A stretch of 64,000 nt of DNA from sequence record CP132210.1. One strand, 5' to 3'. How positions within the stretch are numbered: the first letter of the stretch is position 1; each line of letters starts with the position of its first letter. The translations under genes and the position numbers were made by a program. Below are positions 47-21,140 of this stretch, piece by piece. Under the pieces are notes generated by a model. That model made no database searches. It was not told where the DNA came from and worked only from the letters and a program-made list of their open reading frames with translations. Source of the stretch: a plasmid.

Positions 47-1324
47 ATGACTAAAGTGAACCATCTACAAAGCCTCTGTGTTATCCACGTTGACTTTGAT
101 ATTTGGAGTGGACAAACCCGTTTGTCTGCATCTGATCTCAAGCTGGGCGAGGGTGGTGAAATTCCACCGGAGAAAGTAGCTCAACTGGGGAGTAAGAAGA
201 TCTGTGATCCGGCGAAGCTGAAAGGCTTTCACCGCCTGAAAACAGAAACCCGTCGTCTCCTGTTGAAATTCGGTATGCCGTTCATGAACGGATTTGCCGT
301 CCCAGTCAGCAAGACCGATGAAATCTGTAACAAGCTGAATGAGATCAGCTTTCAGTTCAACCAACTGAAACAGGACTTCATCAACGGTTACAACAACGCC
401 GTGGATGAATGGTGTCAGGAAAACCCTGAGTACGAACGAGCTATCCGTGCCGGATCTCTTCCAAAGGAAACGGTCGAGGAGCGGATTGGCTTTGAGTTCC
501 AGGTGTTCATGATCCAGCCGGTGAACGATGATGAGGCCAACGCCAAAAGCCTTAACCGTAAGGTTGAGCGCTTGGGTGACGATCTCATCTCCGAAGTGGT
601 TCAGGAAGCGAATAAGTTCTATATGGAACGTTTGGCCGGTCGAGACCAATGTGCTGTCACGACTCGGCTGACTCTCCGTAATATCCGCGACAAGGTGGAT
701 GGACTTAGCTTCTTGAACAGCGCTTTTAACCCTCTGGTAAAGCTGCTCGACCAAACCCTCCGGGGATATGAGAAACATGCCGATGGTCGAAACATCGTTG
801 CGCCTTTCTTCTATCAGGTCGTGGCCGCTGTGCTGATCATGAGCGAGAGAGACCGCATCGAGCAGTATGCCAATGGCTCAATTACTGTAGAGAGCATGGC
901 TAATAACATTGGCGGTTCGGAAGCCCAAATGGGGGACTGTTCCAAAGATGAAAAGCCTGAACGGAAAAGCGATACATCCGGTGAGCCCACTCTTGCATTT
1001 GAGGGGGGCGAAACCAAGACGCAACAGGTAGGCGGAAACGACTCTGTTCTATCCGAACAGACTAACAGCAATGGTAACGTTGTTGACCTGGATGAAGACA
1101 TCGACAACTTCTTCAAGAGTTTTGCAGAGCGAGGCGAGGGTGAATCGGAAGATGAATCCAAGGCCGGTGATGCGATTCAAGAAGAGCGAGTTGAAGTTGA
1201 GGATGAGCCTGTTTTGCCTGGGGATACTCCGGTAGAGCAAGAACCTATCCAAGAGCTACCCACTGAGGAACCCCTCATCCAGGTGCCGCCTAAAACTGAT
1301 GATGATGACGACTGTTTCTTCTAA
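47..1324 (+). CDS. DUF3150-like protein with a strongly acidic C-terminal tail ending DDDDDCFF
   Basis: ATG at 47 preceded by GGAGTG. The same upstream element, RBS and start are repeated at 9238-9294. Read by eye as the DUF3150 family that sits beside CobS/CobT-like pairs on mobile elements. Confidence 0.65.
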   Translation: MTKVNHLQSLCVIHVDFDIWSGQTRLSASDLKLGEGGEIPPEKVAQLGSKKICDPAKLKGFHRLKTETRRLLLKFGMPFMNGFAVPVSKTDEICNKLNEISFQFNQLKQDFINGYNNAVDEWCQENPEYERAIRAGSLPKETVEERIGFEFQVFMIQPVNDDEANAKSLNRKVERLGDDLISEVVQEANKFYMERLAGRDQCAVTTRLTLRNIRDKVDGLSFLNSAFNPLVKLLDQTLRGYEKHADGRNIVAPFFYQVVAAVLIMSERDRIEQYANGSITVESMANNIGGSEAQMGDCSKDEKPERKSDTSGEPTLAFEGGETKTQQVGGNDSVLSEQTNSNGNVVDLDEDIDNFFKSFAERGEGESEDESKAGDAIQEERVEVEDEPVLPGDTPVEQEPIQELPTEEPLIQVPPKTDDDDDCFF

Positions 1325-1408
1325 TAGTCACTTCAACTAAATCGACCCGGAGGGGATAGCCATTCCCTCCAGGGGTGGACTATCTCCTTCCCTACCAGGA
1401 GAAAAGAT

Positions 1409-3205
1409 ATGTCCAAAAAACACACCATTTACAGCGCTCTACCAATCGTGGCCGCAGCCTATGGTGAAAAACTCGGTGTCAAAGTCGCCATCGGTAACGA
1501 TGACGCATACACCGATGGCAAGACCATCGTGGTTCCGAATATTCCCGACGACTATCCGCACATGGATGCTGTCTGGGGATATTTGGCCCATGAAGCTGCC
1601 CATGTCCGGTTTACGGACTTTGGTGTTGAACGCCGCAGAGGCCTTCATGCTGAGTTGTCCAACATTTTGGAGGACTGCCGCATAGAACGCGCCATGATGG
1701 AGCTCTTCCCAGGCACTTCACAGACCCTGAATGAAGTCGCTCGCTACATGGCTCAAGCCGGTCATTACGAACACGTCACAGATAAAGAGGCTCCGGCCTC
1801 CATTCTGACTGGGTTCTGCTTGTACTGGCTGCAAACCAAGGCTGTAGGGCAATCCGTCCTTCAACCCTATCTCGATTCGGCTACCTCCGTATTCGAGCGC
1901 GTGTTTCCTCAAGGGGTTGTTGTTCGGCTGAACGCTTTGCTGCGTAAGGCTGTGAACACTAAGTCAACCGCAGAGGTGACATCCTTGGCCGACAAAATCA
2001 TCAAGATGATCGAGGAGGAAAAGGAGAAAGAAGAGCAGAAGCCTAAGAATGGTGAGGATGGTAACAATCAGCAGAATGCTGGTAGCAACCAATCTCAGAA
2101 CAATCAAGGCGGAGGTGGGAACGATCAAAACCAAGGGCAAGGTGCCAATGGTGGTGATCAGCAAGGCAAAGACCAGAAGCAAGACGATGCTGGTGGAAAG
2201 TCTGATCCGAAAGGGCAAGGCGACCAAAGCAAGTCGGATACTGATGGTGGCAGCAAGGCTGGACAAAGCCAGGCTGGTGGCAATTCTGACGCAGCAAAGC
2301 AAGATGCGGCCAAAATGCTCCAGCAGGTTCTGAATGCCGGTGCCGGTGACTTGCGTGGTGACGCGCATGATGCACTTAAAGCTGAGCTCAACCGGGTGGC
2401 TCAAGATAAGGGAGACAGTAGTTATATGACTGTTCGCTCTGCTGTGAACACCCAGGATAACCCTGCTGTTGGCAAAAGCCTCGTAGGTGATGTGAAGAGC
2501 ACCACTTCAAAGATAAGAACGCAGCTTTACGGATTGGTCCAGGCCAGCCAGCGAGTTGCTCACCGCAACCAACGATCAGGAAAGCGTGTGGATGCCCGGA
2601 AGCTACATCGTGTAGTGACAGGTGATACCCGCGTATTCCTCAAGCCGGAAGCCAAGAAACGCCCTAACACGGCGGTTCACATCCTGGTTGATATGAGCTC
2701 CTCGATGGCCTACAAGGCCGCCAATGGAAAGGAGCGTCAAGATATTGCGCGGGAAGCATCCTTAGCTATTTCTATGGCTCTGGAAGCGATCCCCGGCGTA
2801 AATCCGGCAGTCACCTTTTTTGGTGGCAACCGGAACCAGCCAGTGTTCAGTGTCGTGAAGCATGGAGATACGGTTCAGAATCGGGCCGGTCGGTTTGGGT
2901 TCAAAGCAACTGGCGGTACACCTATGGCGGAAGCTATGTGGTATGCAGCCTTTGAACTCACCAAGACCCGTGAAGAGCGGAAAATGTTGATCGTAGTGAC
3001 TGATGGGCAGCCTCAAAGCGCCCCTGCATGTCGCTCTGTGATCGACCTCTGTGAACGAAGCGATGTTGAGGTGATAGGCATAGGGGTAGAGACTACCGCA
3101 GTGTCAGGACTGTTCCAAAAGAACATTGTCATTGACGATGCGGCAGCTCTGCAACGCACACTGTTTAAGCTGATGGAGCGGTCACTGACTGCTTTTGCGG
3201 CCTAG
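1409..3205 (+). CDS. CobT-like von Willebrand factor A (VWA) domain protein with a long Gln/Asn/Gly/Asp/Lys-rich disordered linker
   Basis: AGGAGA RBS. C-terminal VWA signature: VHILVDMSSSM...GGTPMAEAMWYA...LIVVTDGQP. A low-complexity stretch spans about residues 195-300. Confidence 0.75.
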   Translation: MSKKHTIYSALPIVAAAYGEKLGVKVAIGNDDAYTDGKTIVVPNIPDDYPHMDAVWGYLAHEAAHVRFTDFGVERRRGLHAELSNILEDCRIERAMMELFPGTSQTLNEVARYMAQAGHYEHVTDKEAPASILTGFCLYWLQTKAVGQSVLQPYLDSATSVFERVFPQGVVVRLNALLRKAVNTKSTAEVTSLADKIIKMIEEEKEKEEQKPKNGEDGNNQQNAGSNQSQNNQGGGGNDQNQGQGANGGDQQGKDQKQDDAGGKSDPKGQGDQSKSDTDGGSKAGQSQAGGNSDAAKQDAAKMLQQVLNAGAGDLRGDAHDALKAELNRVAQDKGDSSYMTVRSAVNTQDNPAVGKSLVGDVKSTTSKIRTQLYGLVQASQRVAHRNQRSGKRVDARKLHRVVTGDTRVFLKPEAKKRPNTAVHILVDMSSSMAYKAANGKERQDIAREASLAISMALEAIPGVNPAVTFFGGNRNQPVFSVVKHGDTVQNRAGRFGFKATGGTPMAEAMWYAAFELTKTREERKMLIVVTDGQPQSAPACRSVIDLCERSDVEVIGIGVETTAVSGLFQKNIVIDDAAALQRTLFKLMERSLTAFAA

Positions 3206-3319
3206 TGTGTGTAAATAAACGCGGTCGCCCATTTTGGGTGGCCGCCATTTTTTAACCTAGCAGGGGCGTCCTATCTCCTGTTAGGAGGGGGAGCCTCTTT
3301 TGAATAGAGAGCAACTCAA

Positions 3320-3808
3320 ATGTCTGTACTTACTTTTAAAATCCATGATGTGAAAAAGTTGATTGAAGAGCTTGATGCAGCAAGCAGTTTTTCACCATCA
3401 ACGGACGATTTGTTCAATCCTGAAATGTACTCTGACGGCATAGTCAGGGATAAAAATGGAAGGACTGAGCAGGAAGCTGAAAAACATGGCGGGATGTTCT
3501 GGCCTTCAGAAGACTTTATTGACCAGAGCAAAGTTAAACCCGCCTTGATTTTGGTAGGAGATCATGGAGTTTACCTCATCACTAATGCAAAAGCTGATGG
3601 GTCTCCAAGCTCTCGCGGAACAGTCGCTTATGCTAAGGGCTGTAATCCAAGGCTCGATGATGATTTCTACGAAAATAAATGCAACTTGTTTGGTGGTGAT
3701 GATGGTTCGGTTCGCATCCCTTCTGAATGGGCCCGGTGGGCTATCCAGAACCAGAAGGCGTTTCGGATCAAATTGACCACAAACTCGGTTGAGCTGATGC
3801 AGGGGTAA
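3320..3808 (+). CDS. hypothetical protein
   Basis: 162-aa ORF, co-oriented, family A element upstream. Confidence 0.5.
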   Translation: MSVLTFKIHDVKKLIEELDAASSFSPSTDDLFNPEMYSDGIVRDKNGRTEQEAEKHGGMFWPSEDFIDQSKVKPALILVGDHGVYLITNAKADGSPSSRGTVAYAKGCNPRLDDDFYENKCNLFGGDDGSVRIPSEWARWAIQNQKAFRIKLTTNSVELMQG

Positions 3809-3873
3809 TACAGGTAATCCCTGTTGATGTATACGGTCGTCGGTAACGATGGCCGTTTTTATTTGGAGAATCT

Positions 3874-4206
3874 ATGAACCAATTCCATCGGTTGGATTTG
3901 TATCATCAGAACAAGGGTAGAAGAGCATCTGAGCCTGATACACCTTTCTTACTGCTTGCCAAACGCATCCCTCCAATGTACTGGAGACTGTTCCAGGGTG
4001 TCACACTGGATAGTCGTATGGGGTACACCGGCAAGCGGCAGTTCCACGGTCTTGGGCAAGCAATCAACTGGGCAAAATCATCAGTTGGTTATTCCTGGTC
4101 AAACAAGCACTTTCATAAGCCCGTAGACCTCGATCTTTTGCTGGCCTGTACTGCGAGTAAGTTGCCTGAACATCTGGTCGAAGATCTGAAAAGACGGGGC
4201 AATTGA
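3874..4206 (+). CDS. hypothetical protein
   Basis: 110-aa ORF with GGAG RBS 7 nt upstream. Confidence 0.5.
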   Translation: MNQFHRLDLYHQNKGRRASEPDTPFLLLAKRIPPMYWRLFQGVTLDSRMGYTGKRQFHGLGQAINWAKSSVGYSWSNKHFHKPVDLDLLLACTASKLPEHLVEDLKRRGN

Positions 4207-4407
4207 TGCGTCTTTGATCTTGCACCCGAAAAGGGCAGTTTGAGCGTTCCTGTTCATGCCGCTCTCGTGGAAAAATAAAAGTGAGGAGGGGATACCCTCC
4301 CACTTTCTCAGAGGCCTTCATTGAGGGTTGCTGAGAAAGTGAATTTTGTCCTCTCTGAGGGCGAAAACGTGCGATAGCTGGTCGCCAAAAACAAACAGCA
4401 ACCTATC
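4207..4407 (+). repeat. family B intergenic module 1 (hairpin plus conserved GTAGCTGG-N-CCAAAAACAAACAGCAA core)
   Basis: Core 4343-4401 is 59/59 identical to 17941-17999. Confidence 0.7.
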
Positions 4408-4467
4408 TTGGCCCATAGGGCGCACTGCGCCTGTTGGGCAACGTGCGTCCTCAAAAAGGAGATACGC

Positions 4468-5007
4468 ATGTCTATCCTTGAAAAGATGAAAGCAGAAATG
4501 CTTAATCTCTCTCAAAAGCTCAAGTTACCGGAGGTTTATGCCGGTGATGTAGAGCAAGATCTAACCCTGATTGAGCAGTTCAGTGGCTATCAAATGTTAT
4601 GGGTGCTCAGAACCTGTGGTTCGGCATTGATACCGTTAAAGGCCGGAGTTCACCCTGTTCATGTTACTCACTGGATCTGGGGTAATTCAGGGCAACAAAT
4701 CTTTGTGTTTCATGTCAATACGCAGCACGGAACCATAGAGAAAGTTGACTTCGAGGAAGCTGAACGTCTCATCATGCAGCAACCTTGCCATTTGAGCTCT
4801 TCAATGAAGCGCGAAGAGATAATCAGCTATGTTGATCGTGTTCTATCTAATGGCTGCAACCTTCGTATATGGGGTGTTTTTGACTCACCGAAACACTCTT
4901 GTTCGGTCGGGGACTGGTCACAATGGCAACAGTATTTCAGATCGTCAGGTAATCACCTGATGGCCGATTTTATTGGTAAAGCCATTCGATTCACGAACCC
5001 TCGATAA
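4468..5007 (+). CDS. hypothetical protein
   Basis: AAGGAG RBS then ATG at 4468. First gene after family B module 1. Confidence 0.55.
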   Translation: MSILEKMKAEMLNLSQKLKLPEVYAGDVEQDLTLIEQFSGYQMLWVLRTCGSALIPLKAGVHPVHVTHWIWGNSGQQIFVFHVNTQHGTIEKVDFEEAERLIMQQPCHLSSSMKREEIISYVDRVLSNGCNLRIWGVFDSPKHSCSVGDWSQWQQYFRSSGNHLMADFIGKAIRFTNPR

Positions 5008-5087
5008 ATCGCCGTTCAACCATTAACCCTTTGGGGCTCCGATAGCCCTGAGGGGCCGGGGCTCCGCAATCGCATTAAGGAGTCCCT

Positions 5088-5588
5088 ATGAAAAACCTAT
5101 CAGCTTTGGAAGCAGTTCTTGACTACGACAAACCTTCTCGGCGTTTTCTTGATGAGCTCAACGAAAACCAGATGAAGGACCTGTCCGGGGAAATCTTCGC
5201 CAAGCTCTACTGGAGCAAGCGGAATCCTCAGTGGTACGAGAAAGACACCAACAGACTGTTTGCACGACTTCGTTGGGTTCGGCGCATCATCAAGAAGCGC
5301 TTGAGTTCCGGCCAGGTTAAACCTGAACTGACTGAAAATGGTTCAGTGATGGATCGCTTCAACTTCCCTTGCGGTGACACTCTCGATTTCTTCCATCGGT
5401 ACTTGCAACATCCCAAATGGGCTGTTGTGTATCAAGAGTCGGGTTGTATTGCCTTTTGGAAAAATGAAGCAACGCTTGAGCTATGCACCTACTGCGAAGG
5501 TGATGTGGTCATGATGAAGGCACCTGATGAAACGGCCTTCTTTCGTGATTGCAATCGCCTGAGCTGGTGGTATGCAGATAACGCTTGA
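5088..5588 (+). CDS. hypothetical protein
   Basis: AAGGAG RBS, 166 aa. Confidence 0.55.
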   Translation: MKNLSALEAVLDYDKPSRRFLDELNENQMKDLSGEIFAKLYWSKRNPQWYEKDTNRLFARLRWVRRIIKKRLSSGQVKPELTENGSVMDRFNFPCGDTLDFFHRYLQHPKWAVVYQESGCIAFWKNEATLELCTYCEGDVVMMKAPDETAFFRDCNRLSWWYADNA

Positions 5589-5661
5589 TCTTAATCCCTA
5601 ACCAGGGGCGAACCAGCCCCTGATGGGAGCATGGTGCGCCCCATCTACGATGGAGGACGCC

Positions 5662-6546
5662 ATGTTCAAATCATCAGTATGCTCCTACGAAAATAGGGGG
5701 CCTTACGGAAACAACAAGTACCGAGGCAATTGCTCTGGCTTCATCATAAAAGACTTTGTTGAGTCCTACATGAGGAGGCCGAATGGGCTGGTGGCAGACC
5801 CCAGTGTTGGGGGCGGCTCAAGCATCGACGTTGCCAATGAACTTGGAATCCGTTTCAAAGGGACAGACTTGCATCAGGGTTTCAATCTGTTGCGGGATGA
5901 CTTCCTTTCGTTCCTCGGAGAGCCTGCACACCTTATCTGGTGGCACCCTCCTTACTGGGACATGATCCAGTATTCAGGTAAACAGTGGGGAGAACCCAAC
6001 AAATGGGACATGAGCCGCATGAGTTTGCCTGAGTTCGTTGAAGCCCTTGAGTTGGCTGTTATGAACATTCATGACGCTTGTGAGCAAGGGGGACATTACG
6101 GAATCCTCATGGGGAACCTGAGGCGCGATGGGGATTACTTCAACCTGTCCAGCCTTGTGGAACGTATCGCACCTGGAAAGCTGGTGGATGAAATCATCAA
6201 AACACAGCACAACTGTGTGAGTGATCGAACTCAGTATTCCGGGAAGCTAGTGCGCATCGCCCATGAGAAGCTGTTGGTGTTTCGTCGTAACGACGTTGCC
6301 TCATCGCTCTGTCTTCTTGCTGCCGTACACCGCCGATCAACCAACATGGTTTCGACTACGTGGAAAGCTGCAATACGCCGAACCCTACAGGGGAAAACGT
6401 TGAAGCTGGAGCAGATTTACAAAGAGATTGAACCCTACGCAAAGCATCGAGAGAACAACCACTGGCAAGCAAAGGTCAGGCAAGTTCTTCAAGATGCCAG
6501 GTTCTTTAGTCGCATCGAGGTAGGTGCCTATGCACTTGCTGAGTAG
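5662..6546 (+). CDS. putative DNA amino-methyltransferase (N6-adenine or N4-cytosine)
   Basis: GGAGG RBS. Motif I-like DPSVGGGSS followed by motif IV-like WHPPYW (DPPY-type). Confidence 0.6.
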   Translation: MFKSSVCSYENRGPYGNNKYRGNCSGFIIKDFVESYMRRPNGLVADPSVGGGSSIDVANELGIRFKGTDLHQGFNLLRDDFLSFLGEPAHLIWWHPPYWDMIQYSGKQWGEPNKWDMSRMSLPEFVEALELAVMNIHDACEQGGHYGILMGNLRRDGDYFNLSSLVERIAPGKLVDEIIKTQHNCVSDRTQYSGKLVRIAHEKLLVFRRNDVASSLCLLAAVHRRSTNMVSTTWKAAIRRTLQGKTLKLEQIYKEIEPYAKHRENNHWQAKVRQVLQDARFFSRIEVGAYALAE

Positions 6547-6611
6547 CCCAACCGGGGCGTGACATCCCGGAGGGGATTGGTCGCGCTCATTAACATCAAA
6601 GGAGCGTGACC

Positions 6612-6836
6612 ATGAACATACAACTTCAAGCCAACAACATTGTTCTGTTGGCGCAAATCGAAAACAAAGGCCTCACTGTTGAAACGCATTGTCGCAGTGG
6701 CTTTTGTGGCATGTGCCGGGTTCGTCTAATCGAAGGTCAGGTGGCCTACGAAGAGACCCCCATCGCACTTGTCAAAGAAGGGGAAGTGTTGGTTTGCTGC
6801 GCTAAAGCAAAAACCGATGTGACCTTGGAAATTTAA
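6612..6836 (+). CDS. YfaE-like 2Fe-2S ferredoxin
   Basis: 74 aa. Cys cluster CRSGFCGMCRV plus a distal Cys pair (VCC). AAGGAG RBS. Confidence 0.6.
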   Translation: MNIQLQANNIVLLAQIENKGLTVETHCRSGFCGMCRVRLIEGQVAYEETPIALVKEGEVLVCCAKAKTDVTLEI

Positions 6837-6897
6837 CCCATCCGGAGGAGCCTTTCCTGCGGGTGGGGCTCCTCTATCCATTACGAGGAGAAACACT

Positions 6898-7287
6898 ATG
6901 TCTATCAAAACCAAAGTCGAACAAATCGCATACGGCCATGCTACTGCTCAAGTGCTCAGTGAAATGGGTCCACAAGAGAATTGGTATAAGGCTTATGAGT
7001 ATTTGTCGGAGTGTGTAGAACTGGGAGACGACCCTGAGGATCTGGTCGTTTGGCAAAAGTTTGAGCACTGGGAATGGAAAGACATTCTGGAGCAAATCGA
7101 GAGCGAAGCTGAGTCTCTGCTTTCGACTATCAAGTTGGTTTTAGGCTTGGCCCACAAAGGCATCATTCAGTCAGCAATTGACTGCTCTCTCGATTCGGAC
7201 ATGACTCAGCTTGACCTGATTGGAATGGTCGAGCTCGGCAGTGAAATCGAAGAAAGGGAGTGTGCTGGAGGTGGCTATGCAGCTTAA
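6898..7287 (+). CDS. hypothetical acidic protein
   Basis: GAGGAG RBS, 129 aa. Confidence 0.5.
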   Translation: MSIKTKVEQIAYGHATAQVLSEMGPQENWYKAYEYLSECVELGDDPEDLVVWQKFEHWEWKDILEQIESEAESLLSTIKLVLGLAHKGIIQSAIDCSLDSDMTQLDLIGMVELGSEIEERECAGGGYAA

Positions 7288-15574: not shown

Positions 15575-15576
15575 AA

Positions 15577-15718
15577 GGCCCTCCTTCGGGAGGGCTTTTT
15601 CTTTTGCACCCCAAAAGGGCAATTACAGCGTTTTACCCTTTTAAGGTGGCTGTCATACTCTTTGCTCATTGTCAGCGCTTGCTGGCTATAACGGTAGCTG
15701 GCCCAAAACAGCAATAAC
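15577..15718 (+). repeat. family B intergenic module 4
   Basis: Terminator GGCCCTCCTTCGGGAGGGCTTTTT followed by core ACGGTAGCTGGCCCAAAACAGCAA at 15691-15714. Confidence 0.6.
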
Positions 15719-15775
15719 CTAACCCCTCGGGAGGCAACCCTCCTGGGTTCTCTCCCATAACCAAAGGAGAGAAGC

Positions 15776-15979
15776 ATGAGCCTAGACAAGTTAAGTCGGC
15801 TGGTGGACCAACAGCGAAAGACCCAGGATGAAATCAACAACGAAGTCATTCTGGCCGTCAAAGAGGTGTTGTCTACAAATTCCATCAGCTTGGCCCGTGA
15901 GCTTGTTGGGTGTGTCCCGCAAGATCATCCATTCCATCCGTTTTTGCTCGCCATAGCTAAGCAGCTTGACCCGAGATAA
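15776..15979 (+). CDS. hypothetical small protein
   Basis: AAAGGAGAGAAG RBS, 67 aa. First gene after family B module 4. Confidence 0.45.
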   Translation: MSLDKLSRLVDQQRKTQDEINNEVILAVKEVLSTNSISLARELVGCVPQDHPFHPFLLAIAKQLDPR

Positions 15980-15984
15980 CGAAG

Positions 15985-16029
15985 TAACCCAACCGGGTAC
16001 ACCAAGGCCCGGTCGGGTTTGGTGTACCT
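15985..16029 (+). repeat. family A 5'-UTR element with interleaved inverted repeats (A-B-A'-B')
   Basis: AACCCAACCGGG / TACACCAA / CCCGGTCGGGTT / TTGGTGTA, immediately 5' of the RBS of gene 16051. Confidence 0.6.
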
Positions 16030-16050
16030 CCAGCCAATTTAGGAGGCACT

Positions 16051-16656
16051 ATGTCTGATTCAAATTTCGGCTTTCTAGCTCTGGCCTTGCGCCAACGCCT
16101 GATCAAGCGCTGGTCGCTGATGCACTCTGTTCAACCAGAGTCTGTGTTGGAGCACAGCGCTGTTGTTACCTTGCTTTCCTACCTGGCTGGCAATATCGCC
16201 ATTCAGCAAGGGAAGTCGGTGGATCTGGCAATCATGCTGGCTCATGCGTCGTTGCATGATGCAGCCGAGGTTCTTTGTTCGGATGTTGTCACGCCGGTCA
16301 AGAAAGCAAATGCTGTTTTGCAGCGTGAGTTTGAACGACTGGAAAAGGCCGCAGAGGACAAACTTATCCAGACTCTTCCCGAAGAACTCCAGGATGCAGT
16401 TTCCAGAGCCTTTGCTCCCGGTGGCTATGAACAATCACTGGTTAAGGCCTGTGATACCTACTCCGCTTACATCAAGTGCAAACTTGAGGTGGCCGCAGGT
16501 AATGGCATTGAGTTCCAAGATGCTCTCAGCAAAATGGAACGTATTGTTGCTCAGGTGAAATTGGACTTCCCGGAAATCGACGCTCTGGACAAATGGTTTG
16601 GTGACGGACTGGGCCATTCAGTAGATAAATTGCTGGCCGGGGGTAACGATGACTAA
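16051..16656 (+). CDS. YfbR-like HD-domain 5'-deoxynucleotidase
   Basis: Collinear with E. coli YfbR: RWSLM..ESVLEHSAVV..LAHASLHDAAEVL..GD(V)VTPVK. TTAGGAGG RBS. Confidence 0.7.
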   Translation: MSDSNFGFLALALRQRLIKRWSLMHSVQPESVLEHSAVVTLLSYLAGNIAIQQGKSVDLAIMLAHASLHDAAEVLCSDVVTPVKKANAVLQREFERLEKAAEDKLIQTLPEELQDAVSRAFAPGGYEQSLVKACDTYSAYIKCKLEVAAGNGIEFQDALSKMERIVAQVKLDFPEIDALDKWFGDGLGHSVDKLLAGGNDD

Positions 16657-16921
16657 TCCAATCGCTGGCGACATCAAGATTAAGAACTTTGGCCGTGACC
16701 GGAAATTTCGTTCGGTTGATGAGCTTCAAGGCACTTTGTCTGAACAGTACAAAGGTCAGCATGTCAGTGTCGTTTACCCTACAAAGCCTCACGGATTACT
16801 CCGTACCGTCTTTGTCAGTGTTGATGATGCCGGTGGCATAAATGAGACTTACGGAAAGCAGTCTCCAGTCGATTTTAATGCCATCAAAGATGACCTGTTT
16901 GTACCAAGTGTACTGAATTAA
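16649..16921 (+). CDS. hypothetical protein
   Basis: ATG overlaps the stop of the upstream gene (coupled). 90 aa. Confidence 0.45.
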   Translation: MTNPIAGDIKIKNFGRDRKFRSVDELQGTLSEQYKGQHVSVVYPTKPHGLLRTVFVSVDDAGGINETYGKQSPVDFNAIKDDLFVPSVLN

Positions 16922-17000
16922 GCCGCAAGGCTTCTTAACCCCACGGGGGACATCTGTCCCTGAGGGGGGGGTGTCTCCCTCTGAAACTAAGGAGATACCA

Positions 17001-17861
17001 ATGATTAAGCAGCATTTTCAAAACGAACTGGTCAAATGCGGATACCCTGATGACCTGACCATTGAGTACCGTCTTGGGTACTGTCAGGGTGATGGAGTGG
17101 CATTCTACGGATGTTTGGGTGTTGATAATGCTCAGGCGTTGATGAAGCGCTTGTTAAGCACCACAAAGGGGCAAGTAGATGCTGTCAGCAGAGTGAAAAA
17201 CCTGATAGCACAAAAAGACATTGACAATATGTTTCTTGTCCTTCGTGAGTATGCTGAGCTCCAGTTCTGCGAACTGGACATCAACAGAAACAGCTACGGC
17301 CATCATTACAGTCACTGGAACACCATGCGTATTGATAGCAACGTAGACTTCACTGGGATCTTTCCTGATGATGACACCATGCTTGGAACAGGCATCGAAG
17401 GGATTGACCAAGCGATGTTAGAGCGTTGGCAAGGCATCTGGGAGCGTTTCGTGTTGGAACTGTCGGGTGATGTTAAACAGCTTTCCAAGAAGCTCGAATC
17501 CGACGGTTATGCGTTGATAGAAGCCTCGCCACACGAAGAGAAAGTGGTTTGGGAACGGACTACTCAAAATTACTTGGTGCGAGTGACAGAACTCCCTGAA
17601 CGGGATTTCGACATGGACCACTGGGATGACGACATCAGAGACCAAACGATTCGTTCTATCCTGGAGGGAAAAGAGCGAGTGCTTGGCCTACGTGTTGAGG
17701 TGCTCTCTCGTGAAAACGAGATTGTTCTGGGTGAAGAGAGTCTGCACGGTTTGACCGTTGCCAGTGATGACAAGAGCTACGCTGGCTACAGACGAGAACT
17801 CCTCCGGGGCGCTATCCAGCAAACCAGAGATTTTTTCTCTCGCCACCTCAAAGCGGCATAA
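17001..17861 (+). CDS. hypothetical protein
   Basis: TAAGGAGATACCAATG, 286 aa. Confidence 0.55.
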   Translation: MIKQHFQNELVKCGYPDDLTIEYRLGYCQGDGVAFYGCLGVDNAQALMKRLLSTTKGQVDAVSRVKNLIAQKDIDNMFLVLREYAELQFCELDINRNSYGHHYSHWNTMRIDSNVDFTGIFPDDDTMLGTGIEGIDQAMLERWQGIWERFVLELSGDVKQLSKKLESDGYALIEASPHEEKVVWERTTQNYLVRVTELPERDFDMDHWDDDIRDQTIRSILEGKERVLGLRVEVLSRENEIVLGEESLHGLTVASDDKSYAGYRRELLRGAIQQTRDFFSRHLKAA

Positions 17862-17865
17862 CAAA

Positions 17866-18000
17866 GCAGGGGGAAACCCCTGCTTTACTCCCCAAGTCTC
17901 CTTACTCATGGTGAAGCCATCAGTAAGCAGATTTTGTCCTCTCTGAGGGCGAAAACGTGCGATAGCTGGTCGCCAAAAACAAACAGCAAATTAACGTTAA
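17866..18000 (+). repeat. family B intergenic module 5
   Basis: Terminator-like AGCAGGGGGAAACCCCTGCTTT, then a 59-bp core identical to module 1. Confidence 0.7.
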
Positions 18001-18093
18001 AAATCTCGGCTTTGGCCGTGATCTTTCAATAACCCATGCGGGTACACCTCCCCGCACGGGCTAGGTGTACCCATTAACTTTGGAGTACACCTC

Positions 18094-18480
18094 ATGAACC
18101 AAGTAGCTAAATTGGACCTCGCCCAAATCCGTCAACAAGCCATCAATGATGGACTGCTGGTGGACCAATCCTCCATCGGCACACAAGCTGGTTTCCTGAC
18201 CAATGTGGCAGTGACCCCAGCCATTGTCGATGGAGTATTTGGTGCGGATGGTAAGCACTCGGCAGAAGACTTCCTTCTCATGTTTTTGCAGCTTTGTGTT
18301 GCCCAAACAAAGGTCGCTTTTACCGACAACAAGAACTGGGGAAAGATTCGCCTCTATTACCCCATGCCCACTGTAAATGGCTTTTTCAAACCCACTGAGG
18401 TTGTGATTAAGTCAGACCCTGTAACCGCAGATGTCACAATCATGATGGCCTCAGAAGAGGGCACCCATTTGTGTTTGTGA
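18094..18480 (+). CDS. hypothetical protein
   Basis: TTTGGAG RBS. First gene after family B module 5. Confidence 0.5.
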   Translation: MNQVAKLDLAQIRQQAINDGLLVDQSSIGTQAGFLTNVAVTPAIVDGVFGADGKHSAEDFLLMFLQLCVAQTKVAFTDNKNWGKIRLYYPMPTVNGFFKPTEVVIKSDPVTADVTIMMASEEGTHLCL

Positions 18481-18657
18481 TGTTCACAAAATTCGCCTCC
18501 GTCTCGGGGGCGATCTTTTTAAACCCCTCGCCGGGGAGTTCTCCCCGGCTGGGGAGCCTCCTTGGCACATCCTCCCGGTGTCGGGGTTTCCTTAAAACCC
18601 TGGCGACGGGGGTTTAAGGAAGCCTCGATGCTGGGGTTCACGCTAAGGAGAAAACCT

Positions 18658-20385
18658 ATGTCTTACTACAAAGCTGACACCGTTCGTGAAGCTGCAAACG
18701 GAAACTGGCTATTCATCCTGGCGGCTCTAGCGCCCCATCTTGAACCAGCTCTCCGTAAACCAGGTCGTCATGTTTCTTGCCCTATCCACGGTGGGAAAGA
18801 TGGCTTCCGCCTGTTCAAGGATGCCCACCTGACTGGTGGCGGCGTATGCAATACATGCGGTGCTAATCATGACGGTTTTGAGTTGCTGATGTGGCTCAAT
18901 AATTGGGACTTTAAGCAGTGTCTGAGCGAGGTTGGTGATTATCTGGGAGTTGAGAAAGAGCAACCCCAGTGTCAACAAGCCGCTGCACCGACACGAGCTC
19001 CTGCACAGGCCAAAGCGCCTGTTCAGCAAGGGCCCATGAAGGTGAATAACAAGGTCCTCGATTCCAAGAATCGCAAAAAATCCATTGCCGGTACTCTGAT
19101 TGCCCACGGTAAAGCTCCCTATGAGCATAACGAAGACAATGAGCTCAGCTACTTTGCCTTCATCCGTGACAGGAGCGGTTTGGAACGCACCATTTGGGGC
19201 GTGGATCTTGAAAGAGCCATCGGTGAAAGCGAAGCCAAGTATGGTGATGAGGTCGTCATGACAAACCTCGGGCGCGAGCCTGTAACTGTCGTCGTTGAAG
19301 TTAAGGACGATCAGGGGAATGTTGTGAGAGAACAACCTATGCAAACGCATCGCAACACCTGGCTGGTGGAACGTCGTGGCGCTTCGGTGACGCAGTTCCG
19401 CGCACGCTCAAACGGTGGTGTTGAGTCGGTGAGTCACCATGTTGAGTTGCCCCCTGTGGTCAACCGCACGGTAGAAGCTCCGGCACCGCAAGCACAAGCT
19501 TCGGCCATACAACTGGAAGGGCAAAGCAGCGAAAACAAGCCGAAAGTTGTTCCAATGTTTCGTGAACAACCCAAGCCTTGGTTGCTTGAGCTCCAAGAGG
19601 AAATGGAGAAGAGAATGGAGCGTGAACGCGCTTACAGCGCTCGCCTCCGTGAGAAAATTGAGAAGGTATGGAACGAGTGTTTGCCGTTCTCTAGTCGTGT
19701 GACTGAACCAATGCGTCTGTATTTCAAAAACCGCGAGCTGCTGTTCAACGTTGATGAAGTAGAAAAAACAGACTGTTTGCGGTTCAATCCGGCTATGCCC
19801 TACTACGACGAAGATGGCAATGAAGTTGGGAAATTCCCGGCTATCGTCTGCGCTATCCGAGATGTGGAAGGCAACCTGGTAACGCTCCACCGCACCTATC
19901 TCACCCAAAACGGTAAAAAAGCCAAGGTTGGCAACGCCAAGAAAATGATGCCCATTCCTGACGGCTTGGATGTTAATGGCGCGGCCATCCGCCTCGGTGA
20001 ACCGAGTGAGGGTATCCTGGGTGTTGCAGAAGGGCTGGAAACGGCTCTGTCCGCTTATCGAGTCACTCAAATTCCGGTTTGGTCAACGGTCAATGCGACC
20101 CTGATGGAGTCCTTCGAGGTTCCAGAAGGTGTTCACACAGTATTGATCTGGGCTGACAAAGATAAGTCTGTGACTGGTGAAAAGTCAGCTAACGTGCTGA
20201 AAGCCAAGCTGGAGAAGCGCGGCATTCGTGTTTACGTCCTGCTGCCTAAACTCCCAATCCCACCCAGAGCGAAAGGGATTGACTGGAACGATGTCCTGAT
20301 GAGTCAGGGAAGCCTCGGTTTCCCAAATGCTCGCTACCTGCGCGATTTTATTGCGAGAAGGAGAGCTGAGTATGCCCGTCATTGA
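18658..20385 (+). CDS. DNA primase (P4-alpha-type zinc-ribbon N-terminus plus C-terminal TOPRIM domain)
   Basis: CPIHGGKDGFRLF...CNTCG Zn-ribbon. TOPRIM-like EGILGVAEGLETALS...LIWADKDKS. CTAAGGAGAAAACCTATG. Confidence 0.7.
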   Translation: MSYYKADTVREAANGNWLFILAALAPHLEPALRKPGRHVSCPIHGGKDGFRLFKDAHLTGGGVCNTCGANHDGFELLMWLNNWDFKQCLSEVGDYLGVEKEQPQCQQAAAPTRAPAQAKAPVQQGPMKVNNKVLDSKNRKKSIAGTLIAHGKAPYEHNEDNELSYFAFIRDRSGLERTIWGVDLERAIGESEAKYGDEVVMTNLGREPVTVVVEVKDDQGNVVREQPMQTHRNTWLVERRGASVTQFRARSNGGVESVSHHVELPPVVNRTVEAPAPQAQASAIQLEGQSSENKPKVVPMFREQPKPWLLELQEEMEKRMERERAYSARLREKIEKVWNECLPFSSRVTEPMRLYFKNRELLFNVDEVEKTDCLRFNPAMPYYDEDGNEVGKFPAIVCAIRDVEGNLVTLHRTYLTQNGKKAKVGNAKKMMPIPDGLDVNGAAIRLGEPSEGILGVAEGLETALSAYRVTQIPVWSTVNATLMESFEVPEGVHTVLIWADKDKSVTGEKSANVLKAKLEKRGIRVYVLLPKLPIPPRAKGIDWNDVLMSQGSLGFPNARYLRDFIARRRAEYARH

Positions 20386-20650
20386 TGTCACGAAGGTTGA
20401 TACGACGCCTGGTAACGACGCAGTATGCCCCTTCTCTCCCCCTGAGGGGTGGGGGGGGGACTCTGCGGCCTATGTTGAGCTTATGCGGTCTCGGTATCGC
20501 CATCTGATGCACGGCCAGAGAATGATGGTGACAGCCTCCTTCGCAAGAAGGGAGCCTATCCAAGTTACCGGTCCGTTCGCTGATGAGGCGATGAAGATCA
20601 TTAGCTCAATGAAGATGAACAAGGCGAAGCCTACAGCTTTGTCTGTCTAA
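20372..20650 (+). CDS. hypothetical protein (contains a G9 homopolymer in the coding sequence)
   Basis: AAGGAGAG RBS. Overlaps the primase 3' end. G9 tract at 20451-20459 encodes GWGGD. Confidence 0.45.
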   Translation: MPVIDVTKVDTTPGNDAVCPFSPPEGWGGDSAAYVELMRSRYRHLMHGQRMMVTASFARREPIQVTGPFADEAMKIISSMKMNKAKPTALSV

Positions 20651-20655
20651 AACCT

Positions 20656-20698
20656 TAACCCGGAGGGGGTGTTCATGCCCTCTCGGGCATGATTCGCC
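20656..20698 (+). repeat. family A 5'-UTR element
   Basis: TTAACCCGGAGGGGG followed by the palindrome CATGCCCTCTCGGGCATG at 20674-20691. Confidence 0.55.
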
Positions 20699-20710
20699 TC
20701 CTCTTCAACT

Positions 20711-20962
20711 ATGGAGGTAATCATGAAAAAGTTTTTGCGTATTAAGACGTGGTTTGTGCGCCTGTTCTCTCCTGACAAGAAGACGCTGGGAGCTATCGGT
20801 GAAGACCTGCGCAAGGTCGCCGTAACAGCTATCGGTGTTGGTATTGTAGGATTGGCTGTATCTGGGGACACCATAACCGTCGAAGAAGCCGGTTTGGTGT
20901 TGGTCATTGGGGTTATCCTGTGGATCTATGGTATAATCTTAACCAAGGTCAGCAATTCCTAA
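20711..20962 (+). CDS. small membrane protein
   Basis: TATGGAGG RBS. Hydrophobic segments AVTAIGVGIVGLAV and LVLVIGVILWIYGIIL. Confidence 0.5.
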   Translation: MEVIMKKFLRIKTWFVRLFSPDKKTLGAIGEDLRKVAVTAIGVGIVGLAVSGDTITVEEAGLVLVIGVILWIYGIILTKVSNS

Positions 20963-20971
20963 GGGGGTCGA

Positions 20972-21088
20972 ATGAACGCATTCACATTAGGCATGTTGGG
21001 GTTGCTCATATTTTTCACTGCCGTCACTGGCGGTAGCCTGTATCTCTACCATGAGAGACAGAAAGAAAAAAAGCATCACAACGCCTGA
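20972..21088 (+). CDS. 38-aa single-pass membrane peptide
   Basis: AAGGGGG RBS, MNAFTLGMLGLLIFFTAVTGGSLYLY..., followed by a strong terminator. Below the ORF-track length cutoff. Confidence 0.3.
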   Translation: MNAFTLGMLGLLIFFTAVTGGSLYLYHERQKEKKHHNA

Positions 21089-21113
21089 GTCATAATCGCG
21101 AACATGAAACAAA

Positions 21114-21140
21114 GGGCCAGCAATAGCTGGCCCTTTTTTT
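21114..21140 (+). terminator. rho-independent terminator closing the 21-kb co-oriented gene array
   Basis: GGGCCAGC-AATA-GCTGGCCC stem followed by T7. Confidence 0.8.

What the first reader, a model, noticed from the sequence alone, without database searches (positions are those of the whole stretch)
47..21140. 21-kb co-oriented array of about 29 genes, punctuated by two repeat families and divided into six terminator/promoter-delimited units
Every gene from 47 to 21088 is on the plus strand, with 60-230-bp spacers. Five larger spacers carry a conserved family B module, each a hairpin followed by a conserved core. Almost every cistron is immediately preceded by a short GC-rich family A hairpin element. 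The array ends with a strong terminator at 21114-21140. This regular architecture looks like the leading regions of conjugative plasmids, where many small co-oriented early genes each have their own structured promoter. It could also be a phage-like early operon. The gene content (orphan methyltransferases, nucleotide-metabolism and replication-associated proteins) fits an anti-defence or establishment island. The repeat architecture is not explained by any single annotated feature type.
Basis: partly seen in the sequence, partly recalled or inferred. Interest (0 to 1): 0.8.

Follow-up and report, generated by a model that had tools for sequence, protein, structure and literature searches.

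The report
Repeated RNA switches in plasmid gene array
A 21-kb one-directional gene array on an IncA/C-type resistance plasmid has a conserved folded RNA element in front of most genes that can hide or expose the ribosome-binding site, plus a second conserved hairpin at the head of each sub-unit, which points to an undescribed layer of translational control rather than many separate promoters.

Summary
Window 1-21136 is the larger part of a ~28-kb co-oriented array of IncA/IncC plasmids, running from traN to a strong terminator. Published data show the whole array depends on the activator AcaCD through three promoters; two of them lie in the window (4219-4247, 15602-15630).

Family B has five copies here and eight per plasmid. 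It is a 4-bp covarying stem with an invariant UAGCUGG loop and a CA-rich tail, folds on the sense strand, and starts 28-31 nt after two mapped transcription starts. It equals the published "rptI" repeats used by Bet/Exo repair.

Family A has about 19 copies here. It is a conserved hairpin (UAACCC..GGG) whose loop pairs with a 3' tail, and that tail is also complementary to the gene's own Shine-Dalgarno/start region. All pairings are copy-specific (0/20,000 permutations), use G.U pairs on the sense strand, sit ~34 nt before start codons, occur only in this array, and recur in Beta- and Gammaproteobacteria. Neither family is in Rfam 15.

Best reading: A is a per-cistron translational switch and B is a leader RNA. 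The "leading region with many structured promoters" reading is not supported. The anti-defence/establishment gene content is supported by published work.

The parts
1..21136 (+). Window part of the AcaCD-dependent co-oriented array (29 genes, DUF3150 gene to vcrx125-like small ORF); the array begins ~6 kb upstream of the window
4219..4247 (+). AcaCD box of the published vcrx098 promoter (core GCACCCGAAAAGGGCA at 4222)
   Evidence: spacing to the second box is 11,384 bp vs 11,383 bp in pVCR94
15602..15630 (+). AcaCD box of the published vcrx114 promoter; mapped TSS corresponds to ~15666
4334..4401 (+). Family B copy B1 (hairpin, then 4-bp stem with TAGCTGG loop at 4375-4381, then CA-rich tail); whole leader from ~4285
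   Evidence: z -6.1 sense vs -2.9 antisense
8734..8801 (+). Family B copy B2 (loop 8775-8781; stem GAGG/CCTC)
12514..12581 (+). Family B copy B3 (loop 12555-12561; stem GCGG/CUGC with a G.U pair)
15666..15722 (+). Family B copy B4, shortened tail (loop 15695-15701); starts at the mapped TSS of the vcrx114 promoter
17922..17989 (+). Family B copy B5 (loop 17963-17969); whole module from 17862
   Evidence: z -5.1 sense vs -3.2 antisense
1..31 (+). Family A copy cut by the window edge (identical to 9244-9274), before the gene at 47
   Evidence: (D7)
1346..1388 (+). Family A copy before the gene at 1409
4412..4451 (+). Family A copy before the start at 4471 (follows B1)
5027..5066 (+). Family A copy before the gene at 5088
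6547..6588 (+). Family A copy before the start at 6612; abuts the upstream stop codon; tail GGTCGCGCTC pairs with GAGCGTGACC at the start region
   Evidence: z -5.4
6837..6875 (+). Family A copy before the gene at 6898; abuts the upstream stop codon
8010..8044 (+). Family A copy before the gene at 8066; abuts the upstream stop codon
8271..8305 (+). Family A copy before the gene at 8286/8324
8811..8845 (+). Family A copy before the start at 8871 (follows B2)
9229..9270 (+). Family A copy before the start at 9292; loop GGGTGCATC repeats the start region GGAGTGCATCATG
   Evidence: z -4.5
9608..9648 (+). Family A copy before the dcm gene at 9672 (10-bp loop-tail helix)
12590..12625 (+). Family A variant before the gene at 12649 (follows B3)
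13065..13102 (+). Family A copy before the 817-aa gene at 13121
15723..15760 (+). Family A variant before the gene at 15776 (follows B4)
15988..16027 (+). Family A copy before the yfbR-like gene at 16051 (10-bp loop-tail helix)
   Evidence: z -3.1
16939..16978 (+). Family A copy before the start at 16995
18033..18072 (+). Family A copy before the gene at 18094 (follows B5); loop GGTACACCT repeats the start region GGAGTACACCTCATG
   Evidence: z -4.6
18524..18625 (+). Two tandem family A-like elements before the primase start at 18658
20659..20692 (+). Family A copy before the gene at 20711
3221..3255 (+). Intrinsic terminator inside the first unit (published RPKM falls 3015 to 1372 across it)
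3833..3866 (+). Intrinsic terminator (published RPKM falls 1372 to 56 across it)
15578..15605 (+). Terminator-like hairpin with T-run just before the vcrx114 AcaCD box
18493..18523 (+). Intrinsic terminator between the gene at 18094 and the primase gene
21111..21146 (.). Strong bidirectional terminator that ends the array
   Evidence: downstream genes are not AcaCD-induced

Best explanation
The region is the major part of one AcaCD-dependent, ~28-kb polycistronic 'establishment/host-defence-evasion' array of IncA/IncC-type conjugative elements. It is transcribed from three class-II activator promoters, not from many promoters (shown by published data).

Family A (inferred mechanism): it is a cis-acting 5'-leader RNA placed ~34 nt before most start codons. 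A sequence-conserved GC hairpin (UAACCC-N-CGGG...CCCG-N-GGG) presents a variable loop strand. The 16 nt after the hairpin (the 'tail') can pair either with that loop, forming a pseudoknot, or with the gene's own Shine-Dalgarno/start codon. This makes it a per-cistron translational switch. The loop and tail are transcribed before the start region, and the tail:start pairing is the more stable one. The most likely working is therefore kinetic: on nascent RNA the pseudoknot holds the tail and the start site is open, and later refolding closes it. Each transcript would then give a short burst of translation. The conserved hairpin 'handle' may also bind a common factor that sets this balance.

Family B (structure shown, role inferred): it is a leader RNA module consisting of a hairpin, a 4-bp stem with an invariant UAGCUGG loop, and a single-stranded CA-rich tail. 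It forms the 5' end of the primary transcripts and recurs at the head of each sub-unit, 81-131 nt before the first start codon. It most likely serves as a 5' stabiliser or loading platform for ribosomes or a host factor on the first cistron of each unit. As DNA, the same repeats are the published rptI substrates of Bet/Exo single-strand annealing (shown by published data).
For: Transcription:
- AcaCD sites and TSSs are in Table S3, and the AcaCD dependence of every gene vcrx087-125 is in Dataset S1 of PMC4207636.
- The two boxes were located in the window.
- One mRNA spans vcrx087-094 (PMC7498323).
- Sigma-70-like sites are depleted.

Family A:
- The descriptor gives 17 hits on the + strand vs 0.9+-0.9 in shuffles, and only 0-2 chance-like hits per region elsewhere on the plasmid.
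- Loop:own-tail helix 7.04 vs 4.53 (sd 0.17); tail:own-start-region helix 6.83 vs 5.34 (sd 0.15); loop resembles own start region 3.96 vs 3.32. All 0/20,000 permutations.
- Replicated in 178 copies from distant genomes and in 118 from Betaproteobacteria-type loci, with no signal on the opposite strand.
- G.U but not A.C extends the loop-tail helix (27 vs 3 copies, p=1.7e-5).
- GGG-to-start distance has median 34 nt, IQR 31.5-37.
- MFE folds show the hairpin plus a start-sequestering helix, z -3.1 to -5.4.
- Freeing the loop strand raises start-site accessibility (p=0.004), and the gain depends on the loop (p=5e-5).
- Energies are -10.3 (loop:tail) vs -13.6 kcal/mol (tail:start), with the latter more stable in 52/69 copies.
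- One copy was already noted as an RBS-sequestering structure.

Family B:
- ~80 of 120 pattern hits have a perfect 4-bp stem (chance ~2%), and all four Watson-Crick combinations occur at each pair.
- The TSS lies 31 nt (vcrx087 promoter) and 28 nt (vcrx114 promoter) before the loop.
- Sense-strand z-scores are -6.1/-5.1 vs -2.9/-3.2 antisense.
- All 8 copies coincide with Rockhopper operon starts.
- B-to-B distances equal the published deletions 23,702, 10,310 and 9,268 bp.
Against: - No experiment shows that either element acts as RNA.
- Pseudoknots cannot be modelled with the tools used. With 0-2-nt linkers in some copies the outer CCC/GGG pairing and the loop-tail helix may be sterically exclusive.
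- In nested folds the start sites of array genes are not significantly less accessible than those of other backbone genes (0.39 vs 0.46, p=0.11), and the gain on freeing the loop strand is small on average (0.06).
- The tail:start helix shows no G.U preference.
- MAFFT+RNAalifold recovers no consensus for A, so the structure rests on my own descriptor and permutation tests.
- The invariant B loop implies a specific partner that I could not identify (no RNA-binding or NusG domain in 40 proteins).
- The kinetic order-of-folding argument is inference only.
- Table 2 of PMC7498323 is not held as text, so B = rptI rests on three exact distances rather than on sequence.
Confidence: 0.5

Rival explanations
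1. Operator model. The conserved handle of family A (UAACCC..CGGG..CCCG..GGG) and the invariant loop of family B are binding sites for one dedicated RNA-binding factor, either element-encoded or a conserved host protein such as Hfq, S1 or ProQ. This factor would gate translation, or anti-polarity, of the whole array as a post-transcriptional regulon. The cis alternative pairings would be only its read-out.
For: The handle is sequence-constrained from Vibrio to Betaproteobacteria while the loop-tail helix drifts freely. The B loop is invariant in 56 diverged representatives. UAA precedes CCC in 24/51 copies although it is the real stop codon in only 9. The B tail contains AAN repeats typical of Hfq distal-face sites (sequence reading; my own knowledge). 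A and B always co-occur on one strand.
Against: No candidate protein was found: 40 array proteins carry no known RNA-binding domain. A purely cis mechanism already explains the three-way complementarity. No binding data exist.
Confidence: 0.2
2. Punctuation for mRNA processing and stability. A and B would be intercistronic hairpins, like T7 early-region RNase III sites or REP elements, that segment the long transcript and protect the pieces, equalising the expression of ~35 cistrons without controlling initiation.
For: The leaders are far more structured than those of other backbone genes (-31.7 vs -20.7 kcal/mol, p=2e-10). RNA-seq operon boundaries fall at every B. B forms 5'-terminal hairpins on the primary transcripts.
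Against: This does not explain the copy-specific complementarity of the tail to the gene's own SD/start, the resemblance of the loop to the start region, or the tight anchoring to the start codon rather than to the upstream gene's 3' end.
Confidence: 0.15
3. DNA-level repeats only. The repeats would exist as substrates for Bet/Exo single-strand annealing (repair of CRISPR/restriction breaks, modular gene loss and gain) and have no RNA function.
For: Experimentally, rptI repeats mediate deletions of 9-24 kb that rescue cleaved plasmids (PMC7498323), and three deletion sizes equal B-B distances. Relatives differ by whole-gene indels at spacer boundaries.
Against: Annealing needs sequence identity, but selection has preserved pairing instead: compensatory changes at all four B stem pairs and a unique, covarying helix in each A copy. 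There is also the sense-strand G.U bias, the fixed distance to start codons, and conservation of the B loop across bacterial classes at <85% flank identity.
Confidence: 0.08
4. Family B is a processive-antitermination signal, either an RfaH ops-like site or a nut/put-like site, that makes RNA polymerase resistant to the terminators inside the long array.
For: B lies 28-31 nt after the TSS in long operons. B3 reads TGCGGTAGCTGG vs ops GGCGGTAGCGTG (ops from my own knowledge). The hairpin-plus-linear-element layout resembles boxB/boxA. Transcripts read through B(-1) and B0.
Against: Only TAGC of ops is conserved; the flanking G residues vary with compensatory partners. No NusG/RfaH paralog is on the plasmid. 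The terminators at 3221 and 3833 downstream of B0 appear effective (RPKM 3015 to 1372 to 56).
Confidence: 0.07
5. One reading: a leading region in which each small early gene has its own structured (ssDNA, Frpo-like) promoter, fired in the recipient before complementary-strand synthesis.
For: The gene content is establishment-like, and the hde genes are needed in the recipient. The spacers are regular and structured.
Against: oriT is >=27 kb away. The hairpins fold on the sense strand, are 4-10 bp long and contain no -35/-10 hexamers. All genes require AcaCD. A polycistronic mRNA has been shown.
Confidence: 0.03

Closest known systems
rptI direct repeats of IncC plasmids (Roy et al. 2020, PMC7498323)
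   Same: Same sequences as family B: three published deletion sizes equal B-to-B distances in pVCR94. They are intergenic and conserved among IncC plasmids.
   Different: They were described only as DNA repeats annealed by Bet/Exo. The covarying stem, invariant loop, sense-strand folding, position at transcript 5' ends and distribution across Beta- and Gammaproteobacteria were not described. That paper states SXT/R391 elements lack rptI by blastn.
Pseudoknot translational activators of IncI-alpha/IncB/IncL-M replication genes (repZ/repA; from my own knowledge)
   Same: An upstream hairpin loop pairs with a sequence next to the RBS of the downstream gene, and this competes with an RBS-sequestering structure. 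Both are on plasmids.
   Different: Those are single-copy, controlled by an antisense RNA, and require translation and termination of a leader peptide. Here there are ~20-35 copies per element, no antisense RNA is known, and only 16/51 copies lie within 12 nt of an upstream stop codon.
Delayed-folding control of the MS2 maturation gene and hok mRNA metastable folding (from my own knowledge)
   Same: The start site is closed at equilibrium, and translation is possible only while a transient 5' structure delays the inhibitory pairing. This fits the synthesis order loop, tail, start region and the energies.
   Different: Those are single cases in phage or toxin mRNAs. No kinetic data exist here, and the conserved handle suggests an additional partner.
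AcaCD regulon of IncA/C plasmids (Carraro et al. 2014, PMC4207636)
   Same: The array is part of it. Two of the 17 published AcaCD sites are in the window.
   Different: The published work stops at transcription. tra operons of the same regulon lack A and B.
RfaH ops / JUMPStart and lambda nut (boxA-boxB) leader signals (from my own knowledge)
   Same: A short conserved element in the leader of a very long operon; a hairpin followed by a linear motif.
   Different: The ops consensus is not met, no cognate factor was found, and the internal terminators seem to work.
Leading-region ssDNA promoters (Frpo/ssi) of F-like and IncI plasmids (from my own knowledge)
   Same: Structured repeats associated with early establishment and anti-defence genes.
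   Different: Those are long (~300 nt) template-strand hairpins carrying -35/-10 boxes next to oriT. Here the hairpins are short, fold on the sense strand, are promoter-free and lie far from oriT.

Membership tests
Conjugative-plasmid leading region | Lies next to oriT on the side transferred first | tested here: not met
   mobI/oriT is at ~133 kb of the 134-kb reference plasmid, beside repA, and the array is at 58.5-85 kb. There is a single oriT immediately upstream of mobI, with nick site and direction unknown (PMC5587640).
Conjugative-plasmid leading region | ssDNA (Frpo/ssi-type) promoters: long template-strand hairpins carrying -35/-10 boxes | tested here: not met
   G.U wobbles support folding of the sense strand (27 vs 3). 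Stems are 4-10 bp. Sigma-70 hexamer pairs are depleted, with none on the + strand.
Conjugative-plasmid leading region | Establishment/anti-defence gene content (ssb, anti-restriction, methylases) | tested here: met
   The hde operon lies upstream. Dam-like and Dcm methyltransferases, a primase and a YfbR-like nucleotidase lie in the window.
AcaCD regulon (class II activator promoters) | AcaCD box immediately upstream of the -35 region, with a mapped TSS | tested here: met
   Boxes at 4222 and 15606, 11,384 bp apart vs 11,383 bp for the vcrx098/vcrx114 sites. The vcrx114 TSS maps to ~15666.
AcaCD regulon (class II activator promoters) | Expression depends on AcaCD | not testable with these tools
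   Taken from published RNA-seq: all of vcrx087-125 are ~0 in the acaCD deletion and high when complemented.
rptI repeats (Bet/Exo annealing substrates) | Repeat positions account for the published deletion sizes | tested here: met
   66155 to 89857 = 23,702; 65113 to 75423 = 10,310; 66155 to 75423 = 9,268 bp. The repeat sequences themselves (Table 2) could not be read.
RfaH ops / JUMPStart | 12-nt consensus GGCGGTAGnnTG on the non-template strand | tested here: not met
   Only TAGC is invariant. The positions 5' of it take all four bases with compensatory partners.
RfaH ops / JUMPStart | Located in the 5' leader of a long operon | tested here: met
   28-31 nt after two mapped TSSs.
RfaH ops / JUMPStart | Dependence on RfaH or a NusG paralog | not testable with these tools
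   No NusG/KOW domain was found in 40 array proteins or in the plasmid annotation. Host RfaH was not testable.
repZ-type pseudoknot translational activator | A hairpin loop pairs with a sequence adjacent to the RBS, competing with RBS sequestration | tested here: met
   Copy-specific loop:tail and tail:start complementarity, 0/20,000 permutations; replicated in distant genomes.
repZ-type pseudoknot translational activator | Requires translation and termination of an upstream leader ORF at the structure | tested here: inconclusive
   The stop codon abuts the element in 9 of 51 copies and lies within 12 nt in 16 of 51; the rest are 13 to >100 nt away.
repZ-type pseudoknot translational activator | Antisense RNA targeting the hairpin loop | not tested
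   No promoter-like site was seen on the - strand at these elements, but no transcript data were examined.
Any Rfam 15 family | Covariance-model match | tested here: not met
   No hit at A or B at gathering score or at E<=5.
Integron attC sites | RYYYAAC...GTTRRRY core sites, folding of the bottom strand, and an integrase | tested here: not met
   The elements start UAACCC but end in GGG plus a variable tail, not GTTRRRY. Folding is on the sense strand. Gene order is syntenic between relatives with ~65% identity.

The most novel reading that the evidence does not exclude
Families A and B together would be the cis code of a dedicated post-transcriptional control system of MOBH-type conjugative elements. 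A single trans-acting factor (element-encoded or a conserved host protein) would read the invariant UAGCUGG loop and the UAACCC..GGG handle. It would thereby time the translation of ~35 establishment and anti-defence genes to the first minutes after entry into a new host. This would be a regulon defined at the level of mRNA leaders rather than promoters, conserved from Vibrio and Enterobacterales to Betaproteobacteria.
Probability: 0.25. Interest if true: 0.9.

Novelty: new variant of a known kind. Interest (0 to 1): 0.74.

Why it matters
IncA/IncC plasmids and their SXT/R391-like relatives are major carriers of multidrug resistance. The array studied here includes the genes that let them survive restriction and CRISPR attack on entry into a new host.

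Their regulation is currently described only at the level of the AcaCD/SetCD activators. A conserved leader switch in front of ~70% of the cistrons, and a second conserved leader module at the head of each sub-unit, would add a translational layer that nobody has tested.

The hypothesis is directly testable, because the helices are short and can be probed with compensatory mutations. It offers two new, widespread RNA motifs for Rfam-type curation. It also has practical consequences. Several public annotations start genes inside these elements (for example the DUF3150 gene of OR232699 starts inside a B copy). The published polar effects of deletions in the hde operon could be explained by a retained switch element.

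Tried and rejected
- **RfaH ops membership for B.** It was attractive at first (GCGGTAGC in B3), but the Vibrio and genome-wide copies show that only TAGC is constant and the flanking bases covary as a stem.
- **B as constitutive or sigma-70 promoters.** Rejected: all genes are silent without AcaCD, and no hexamer matches exist.
- **Terminating-ribosome coupling as the general trigger of A.** Rejected as general: only 16/51 copies lie within 12 nt of a stop codon, and the element is anchored to the start codon.
- **A mini-ORF between B and A as a starter.** Present by eye in one copy (B5) but not in others (reading).
- **Unconstrained helix descriptor.** Too permissive: 215 hits.
- **MAFFT+RNAalifold on A.** No consensus, so no covariance model was built for A.
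- **Pfam search for an RNA-binding or NusG-like protein.** Nothing found in 40 proteins.
- **Phage origin of B.** The viral-contig scan gave only chance-like matches, except one plasmid-like fragment.
- **Search for B-like sequence in SGI1-type islands through E. coli genomes.** Only IncA/C plasmids and one chromosomal copy were found.
- **attC and G-quadruplex readings.** Considered by eye and dropped.
- **Literature searches.** RfaH+IncC, pseudoknot+IncA/C and rptI found nothing beyond Roy et al. 2020.
- **The pAR060302 transcriptome paper.** It is not in the library.

Full report
**What the region is.** Window 1-21200 is 100% identical to a group of IncA-type, MOBH/MPF-F conjugative plasmids of Enterobacterales and ~94% identical to IncC plasmids. 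In a reference record the array follows traN, two minus-strand genes, an AAA ATPase gene, bet and exo. mobI, and therefore oriT, lies beside repA on the other side of the plasmid. The literature places a single oriT immediately upstream of mobI, with nick site and direction undetermined (PMC5587640). All 29 genes between 47 and 21088 are on the + strand. Pfam recognises DUF3150, a CobT/VWA protein, DUF3085, a Dam-like N6/N4 methyltransferase, a YfaE-like ferredoxin, a C5 methyltransferase, a weak PAPS-reductase match in an 817-aa protein, a YfbR-like HD nucleotidase and a zinc-ribbon/Toprim primase. Nineteen of the 30 proteins scanned have no family.

**Transcription is already known and is not one promoter per gene.** In the IncC plasmid pVCR94, ChIP-exo and 5'-RACE located 17 AcaCD sites. 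Three of them serve this array, upstream of vcrx087, vcrx098 and vcrx114 (Table S3 of PMC4207636). The motif GCACCCnAAAAGGGCA occurs at window 4222 and 15606. The spacing is 11,384 bp, against 11,383 bp between the vcrx098 and vcrx114 sites, so these are those two promoters; the third lies ~6 kb upstream of the window. In the published RNA-seq every gene from vcrx087 to vcrx125 is near zero in the acaCD deletion and high when AcaCD is supplied, and the two genes beyond the terminator are not induced. RT-PCR from a primer in vcrx094 detects vcrx087, vcrx089 and bet on the same mRNA (PMC7498323). Sigma-70-like promoter matches are depleted in window 1-20000 (3, none on the + strand, vs 15.3+-3.8 in shuffles). 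Strong + strand intrinsic terminators lie at 3221, 3833, ~15578, 18493 and 21111, mostly not at the family B spacers. Across the first two, published RPKM falls from 3015 to 1372 to 56.

**Family B.** The core, TAGCTGG followed by a CA-rich tail, occurs five times in the window (4375, 8775, 12555, 15695, 17963) and eight times per plasmid. All copies are on the + strand and all lie inside this array. A diverged Vibrio harveyi plasmid has a syntenic array whose genes are only ~65% identical. It carries at least nine copies whose flanking four bases differ but stay complementary. A pattern scan of 185,579 species genomes was capped at 120 loci. About 80 of these have a perfect 4-bp stem around the loop (chance ~2%). 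They come from many Gammaproteobacteria (Vibrio, Shewanella, Photorhabdus, Edwardsiella, Providencia, Marinobacterium, Alcanivorax and others) and Betaproteobacteria (Sulfuritalea, Gallionella, Comamonas, Tepidimonas and others). Viral contigs gave only chance-like matches. On 56 representatives (<85% identical) the four stem pairs show 4-5 pair types and 14, 30, 7 and 19 double changes. The fifth and sixth positions do not pair, and the loop is invariant. G.T wobbles occur in the sense orientation. The two mapped AcaCD transcripts start 31 and 28 nt before the loop, just upstream of a first, variable hairpin. Whole modules fold better on the sense strand (z -6.1 and -5.1) than on the antisense strand (-2.9 and -3.2). 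Each B lies 81-131 nt before the first start codon of a sub-unit, and every B coincides with an operon start called by Rockhopper.

**B is the published rptI repeat.** B-to-B distances in pVCR94 equal three published deletion sizes exactly: 23,702, 10,310 and 9,268 bp. B is therefore the 'rptI' repeat that Bet/Exo anneals to rescue Cas3-cut plasmids. Those deletions, up to 23.7 kb of the array, leave the plasmid transmissible. Table 2 of that paper is not held as text, so this identification rests on the distances rather than on sequence.

**ops is rejected.** My first idea, an RfaH ops site, fails as a membership claim. Only TAGC of GGCGGTAGnnTG is constant, and no NusG paralog is present.

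**Family A.** The spacers before most genes read (U/A)AACCC, 0-3 nt, a 4-8-bp GC helix (typically CGGG...CCCG), 0-3 nt, GGG, then a ~16-nt tail, and ~20 nt later the SD and start codon. A strict descriptor finds 17 copies on the + strand of the array, 14 with SD+start. It finds 0.9+-0.9 in block shuffles, 2 on the - strand and 5 in the upstream part of the array. Across the other ~140 kb it finds only 0-2 chance-like hits per region, none in a pre-cistronic context, and this includes the tra operons of the same regulon. With variants, 19 of the 29 window genes carry it. In pVCR94 and the Vibrio plasmid it precedes 23/30 and 28/40 genes that have spacers >=25 nt.

**The three-way pairing of family A.** I defined copies only by the CCC-helix-GGG part and then asked what the loop and tail pair with:
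- The loop pairs with its own tail far better than with the tails of other copies (mean longest helix 7.04 vs 4.53, sd 0.17).
- The tail pairs with its own SD-start region (6.83 vs 5.34, sd 0.15).
- The loop resembles its own start region (3.96 vs 3.32, sd 0.11).

None of 20,000 permutations reached the observed values. The result replicates in 178 copies from distant genomes (5.89 vs 4.46, sd 0.08; 6.61 vs 5.40, sd 0.09) and in 118 from Betaproteobacteria-type loci, with no signal on the opposite strand. Allowing G.U lengthens the loop-tail helix from 4.9 to 7.7 bp while allowing A.C gives 5.2 bp (27 vs 3 copies, p=1.7e-5). The sense strand is therefore the one that folds.

**How family A probably works.** The element is anchored to the downstream start codon (GGG-to-start median 34 nt, IQR 31.5-37), not to the upstream stop (0 to >100 nt; within 12 nt in only 16 of 51). 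TAA precedes CCC in 24 of 51 copies although it is the real stop codon in only 9. Nested MFE folds show the hairpin followed by a helix that buries the SD and AUG (z -3.1 to -5.4). Holding the 5' strands of the hairpin open raises start-site accessibility from 0.335 to 0.394 (p=0.004), and the gain vanishes if the loop strand is also masked (p=5e-5). Duplex energies average -16.2 (hairpin), -10.3 (loop:tail) and -13.6 kcal/mol (tail:start), and the last is the more stable in 52 of 69 copies. I infer a switch in which the tail is shared between the loop (start site open) and the start site (closed). Because the loop and tail are made first and the closed form is the more stable, the simplest working is a transient translation window on nascent RNA. 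This is analogous to delayed folding in the MS2 maturation gene (my own knowledge). The conserved handle may be read by a factor.

**Caveats.**
- Pseudoknots were not modelled.
- Start-site accessibility does not differ significantly from that of other backbone genes (0.39 vs 0.46, p=0.11), although the leaders are much more structured (-31.7 vs -20.7 kcal/mol, p=2e-10).
- MAFFT+RNAalifold gives no consensus for A.
- No experiment exists.

**Comparison with what is known.** Rfam 15 has no family for either element. RefSeq leaves the B region unannotated. Literature searches found only Roy et al. [quoted passage not shown] The closest mechanistic relatives are the single-copy pseudoknot activators of IncI-alpha/IncB rep genes. 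Here the element is multiplied ~20-35-fold per array and has no known antisense RNA or leader-peptide requirement. The distant B-bearing loci carry primase, AAA ATPase, bet, exo, DUF3150, VWA and dcm homologs in the same orientation (for example Comamonas: traN-ATPase-bet-exo-DUF3150). Both elements are therefore old features of this module of MOBH-type conjugative elements.

**Verdict.** The repeats are best explained as two conserved sense-strand RNA leader elements. B is partly known as a DNA repeat. A has not been described as a family. The mechanism is inferred, not shown.

Noticed in passing
window 38859-38931 and 52488-52554: Two matches to the Rfam AAC_AAD_leader/attI family (64 and 78 bits) inside the high-GC part of the window (30-64 kb, GC up to 0.66). 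This indicates two class 1 integron regions, i.e. resistance islands, downstream of the array.
   Followed up: no
window 8697-8712; L004 ~8500 and ~16770: A perfect 16-bp palindrome, CTTTCACATGTGAAAG, lies just upstream of B2 and recurs upstream of two B copies in the diverged Vibrio plasmid. It could be a protein-binding site or a weak terminator stem.
   Followed up: no
window 1-20000: Sigma-70-like promoter matches are strongly depleted (3 vs 15.3+-3.8 expected, none on the coding strand). This suggests selection against spurious initiation inside the array.
   Followed up: partly
window 12470-12545, 17862-17890; L004 spacers at 12299, 15187, 32355: A recurrent GC hairpin GCGCAGGGGGAAACCCCnCGC is followed by CTTTCC, which is complementary to GGAAAG just before the type-II B hairpin (GGAAAGTGCC..GGCGCT). 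The B module may therefore be a larger multi-helix RNA of ~130 nt with two subtypes of first hairpin.
   Followed up: partly
L001 12052 (OR232699 DUF3150 gene), L001 7578 (ATPase gene); window ORF starts at 4408, 8814, 9238, 16971, 18562: The longest-ORF or deposited start codons of several genes lie inside A or B elements. The SD-ATG pairs after the elements (4471, 8871, 9292, 16995, 18658) are the likely true starts, so public annotations over-extend these genes.
   Followed up: partly
L146 (pVCR94) 89755-90213 vs window 17862-18093; pVCR94 vcrx117/118 region: IncC and the IncA-type plasmid of the window differ by whole-gene and 226-bp indels located exactly at spacers carrying A/B elements. 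This is consistent with repeat-mediated gene gain and loss.
   Followed up: no
pVCR94 Dataset S1 (PMC4207636): vcrx088, vcrx098, vcrx120: The three highest RPKM values in the array (11025, 8357, 10485) belong to very short ORFs or leader-proximal genes next to B modules. This hints that leader fragments accumulate.
   Followed up: no
literature, PMC7498323: A 32-bp segment of rptIb (family B) is reported to be 100% identical in Salmonella genomic island 1, which hijacks AcaCD. I could not locate it because SGI1 is not in the searchable collections.
   Followed up: partly
window 20972-21088: A small hydrophobic ORF (38 aa, vcrx125-like) lies 9 nt after the preceding gene and is the last gene before the terminator.
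   Followed up: no
window 18524-18625: The primase gene is preceded by two tandem family A-like elements. The second has an unusually long (12-bp) loop-tail helix, and the arrangement is conserved in the Vibrio plasmid (L004 29023-29120).
   Followed up: no
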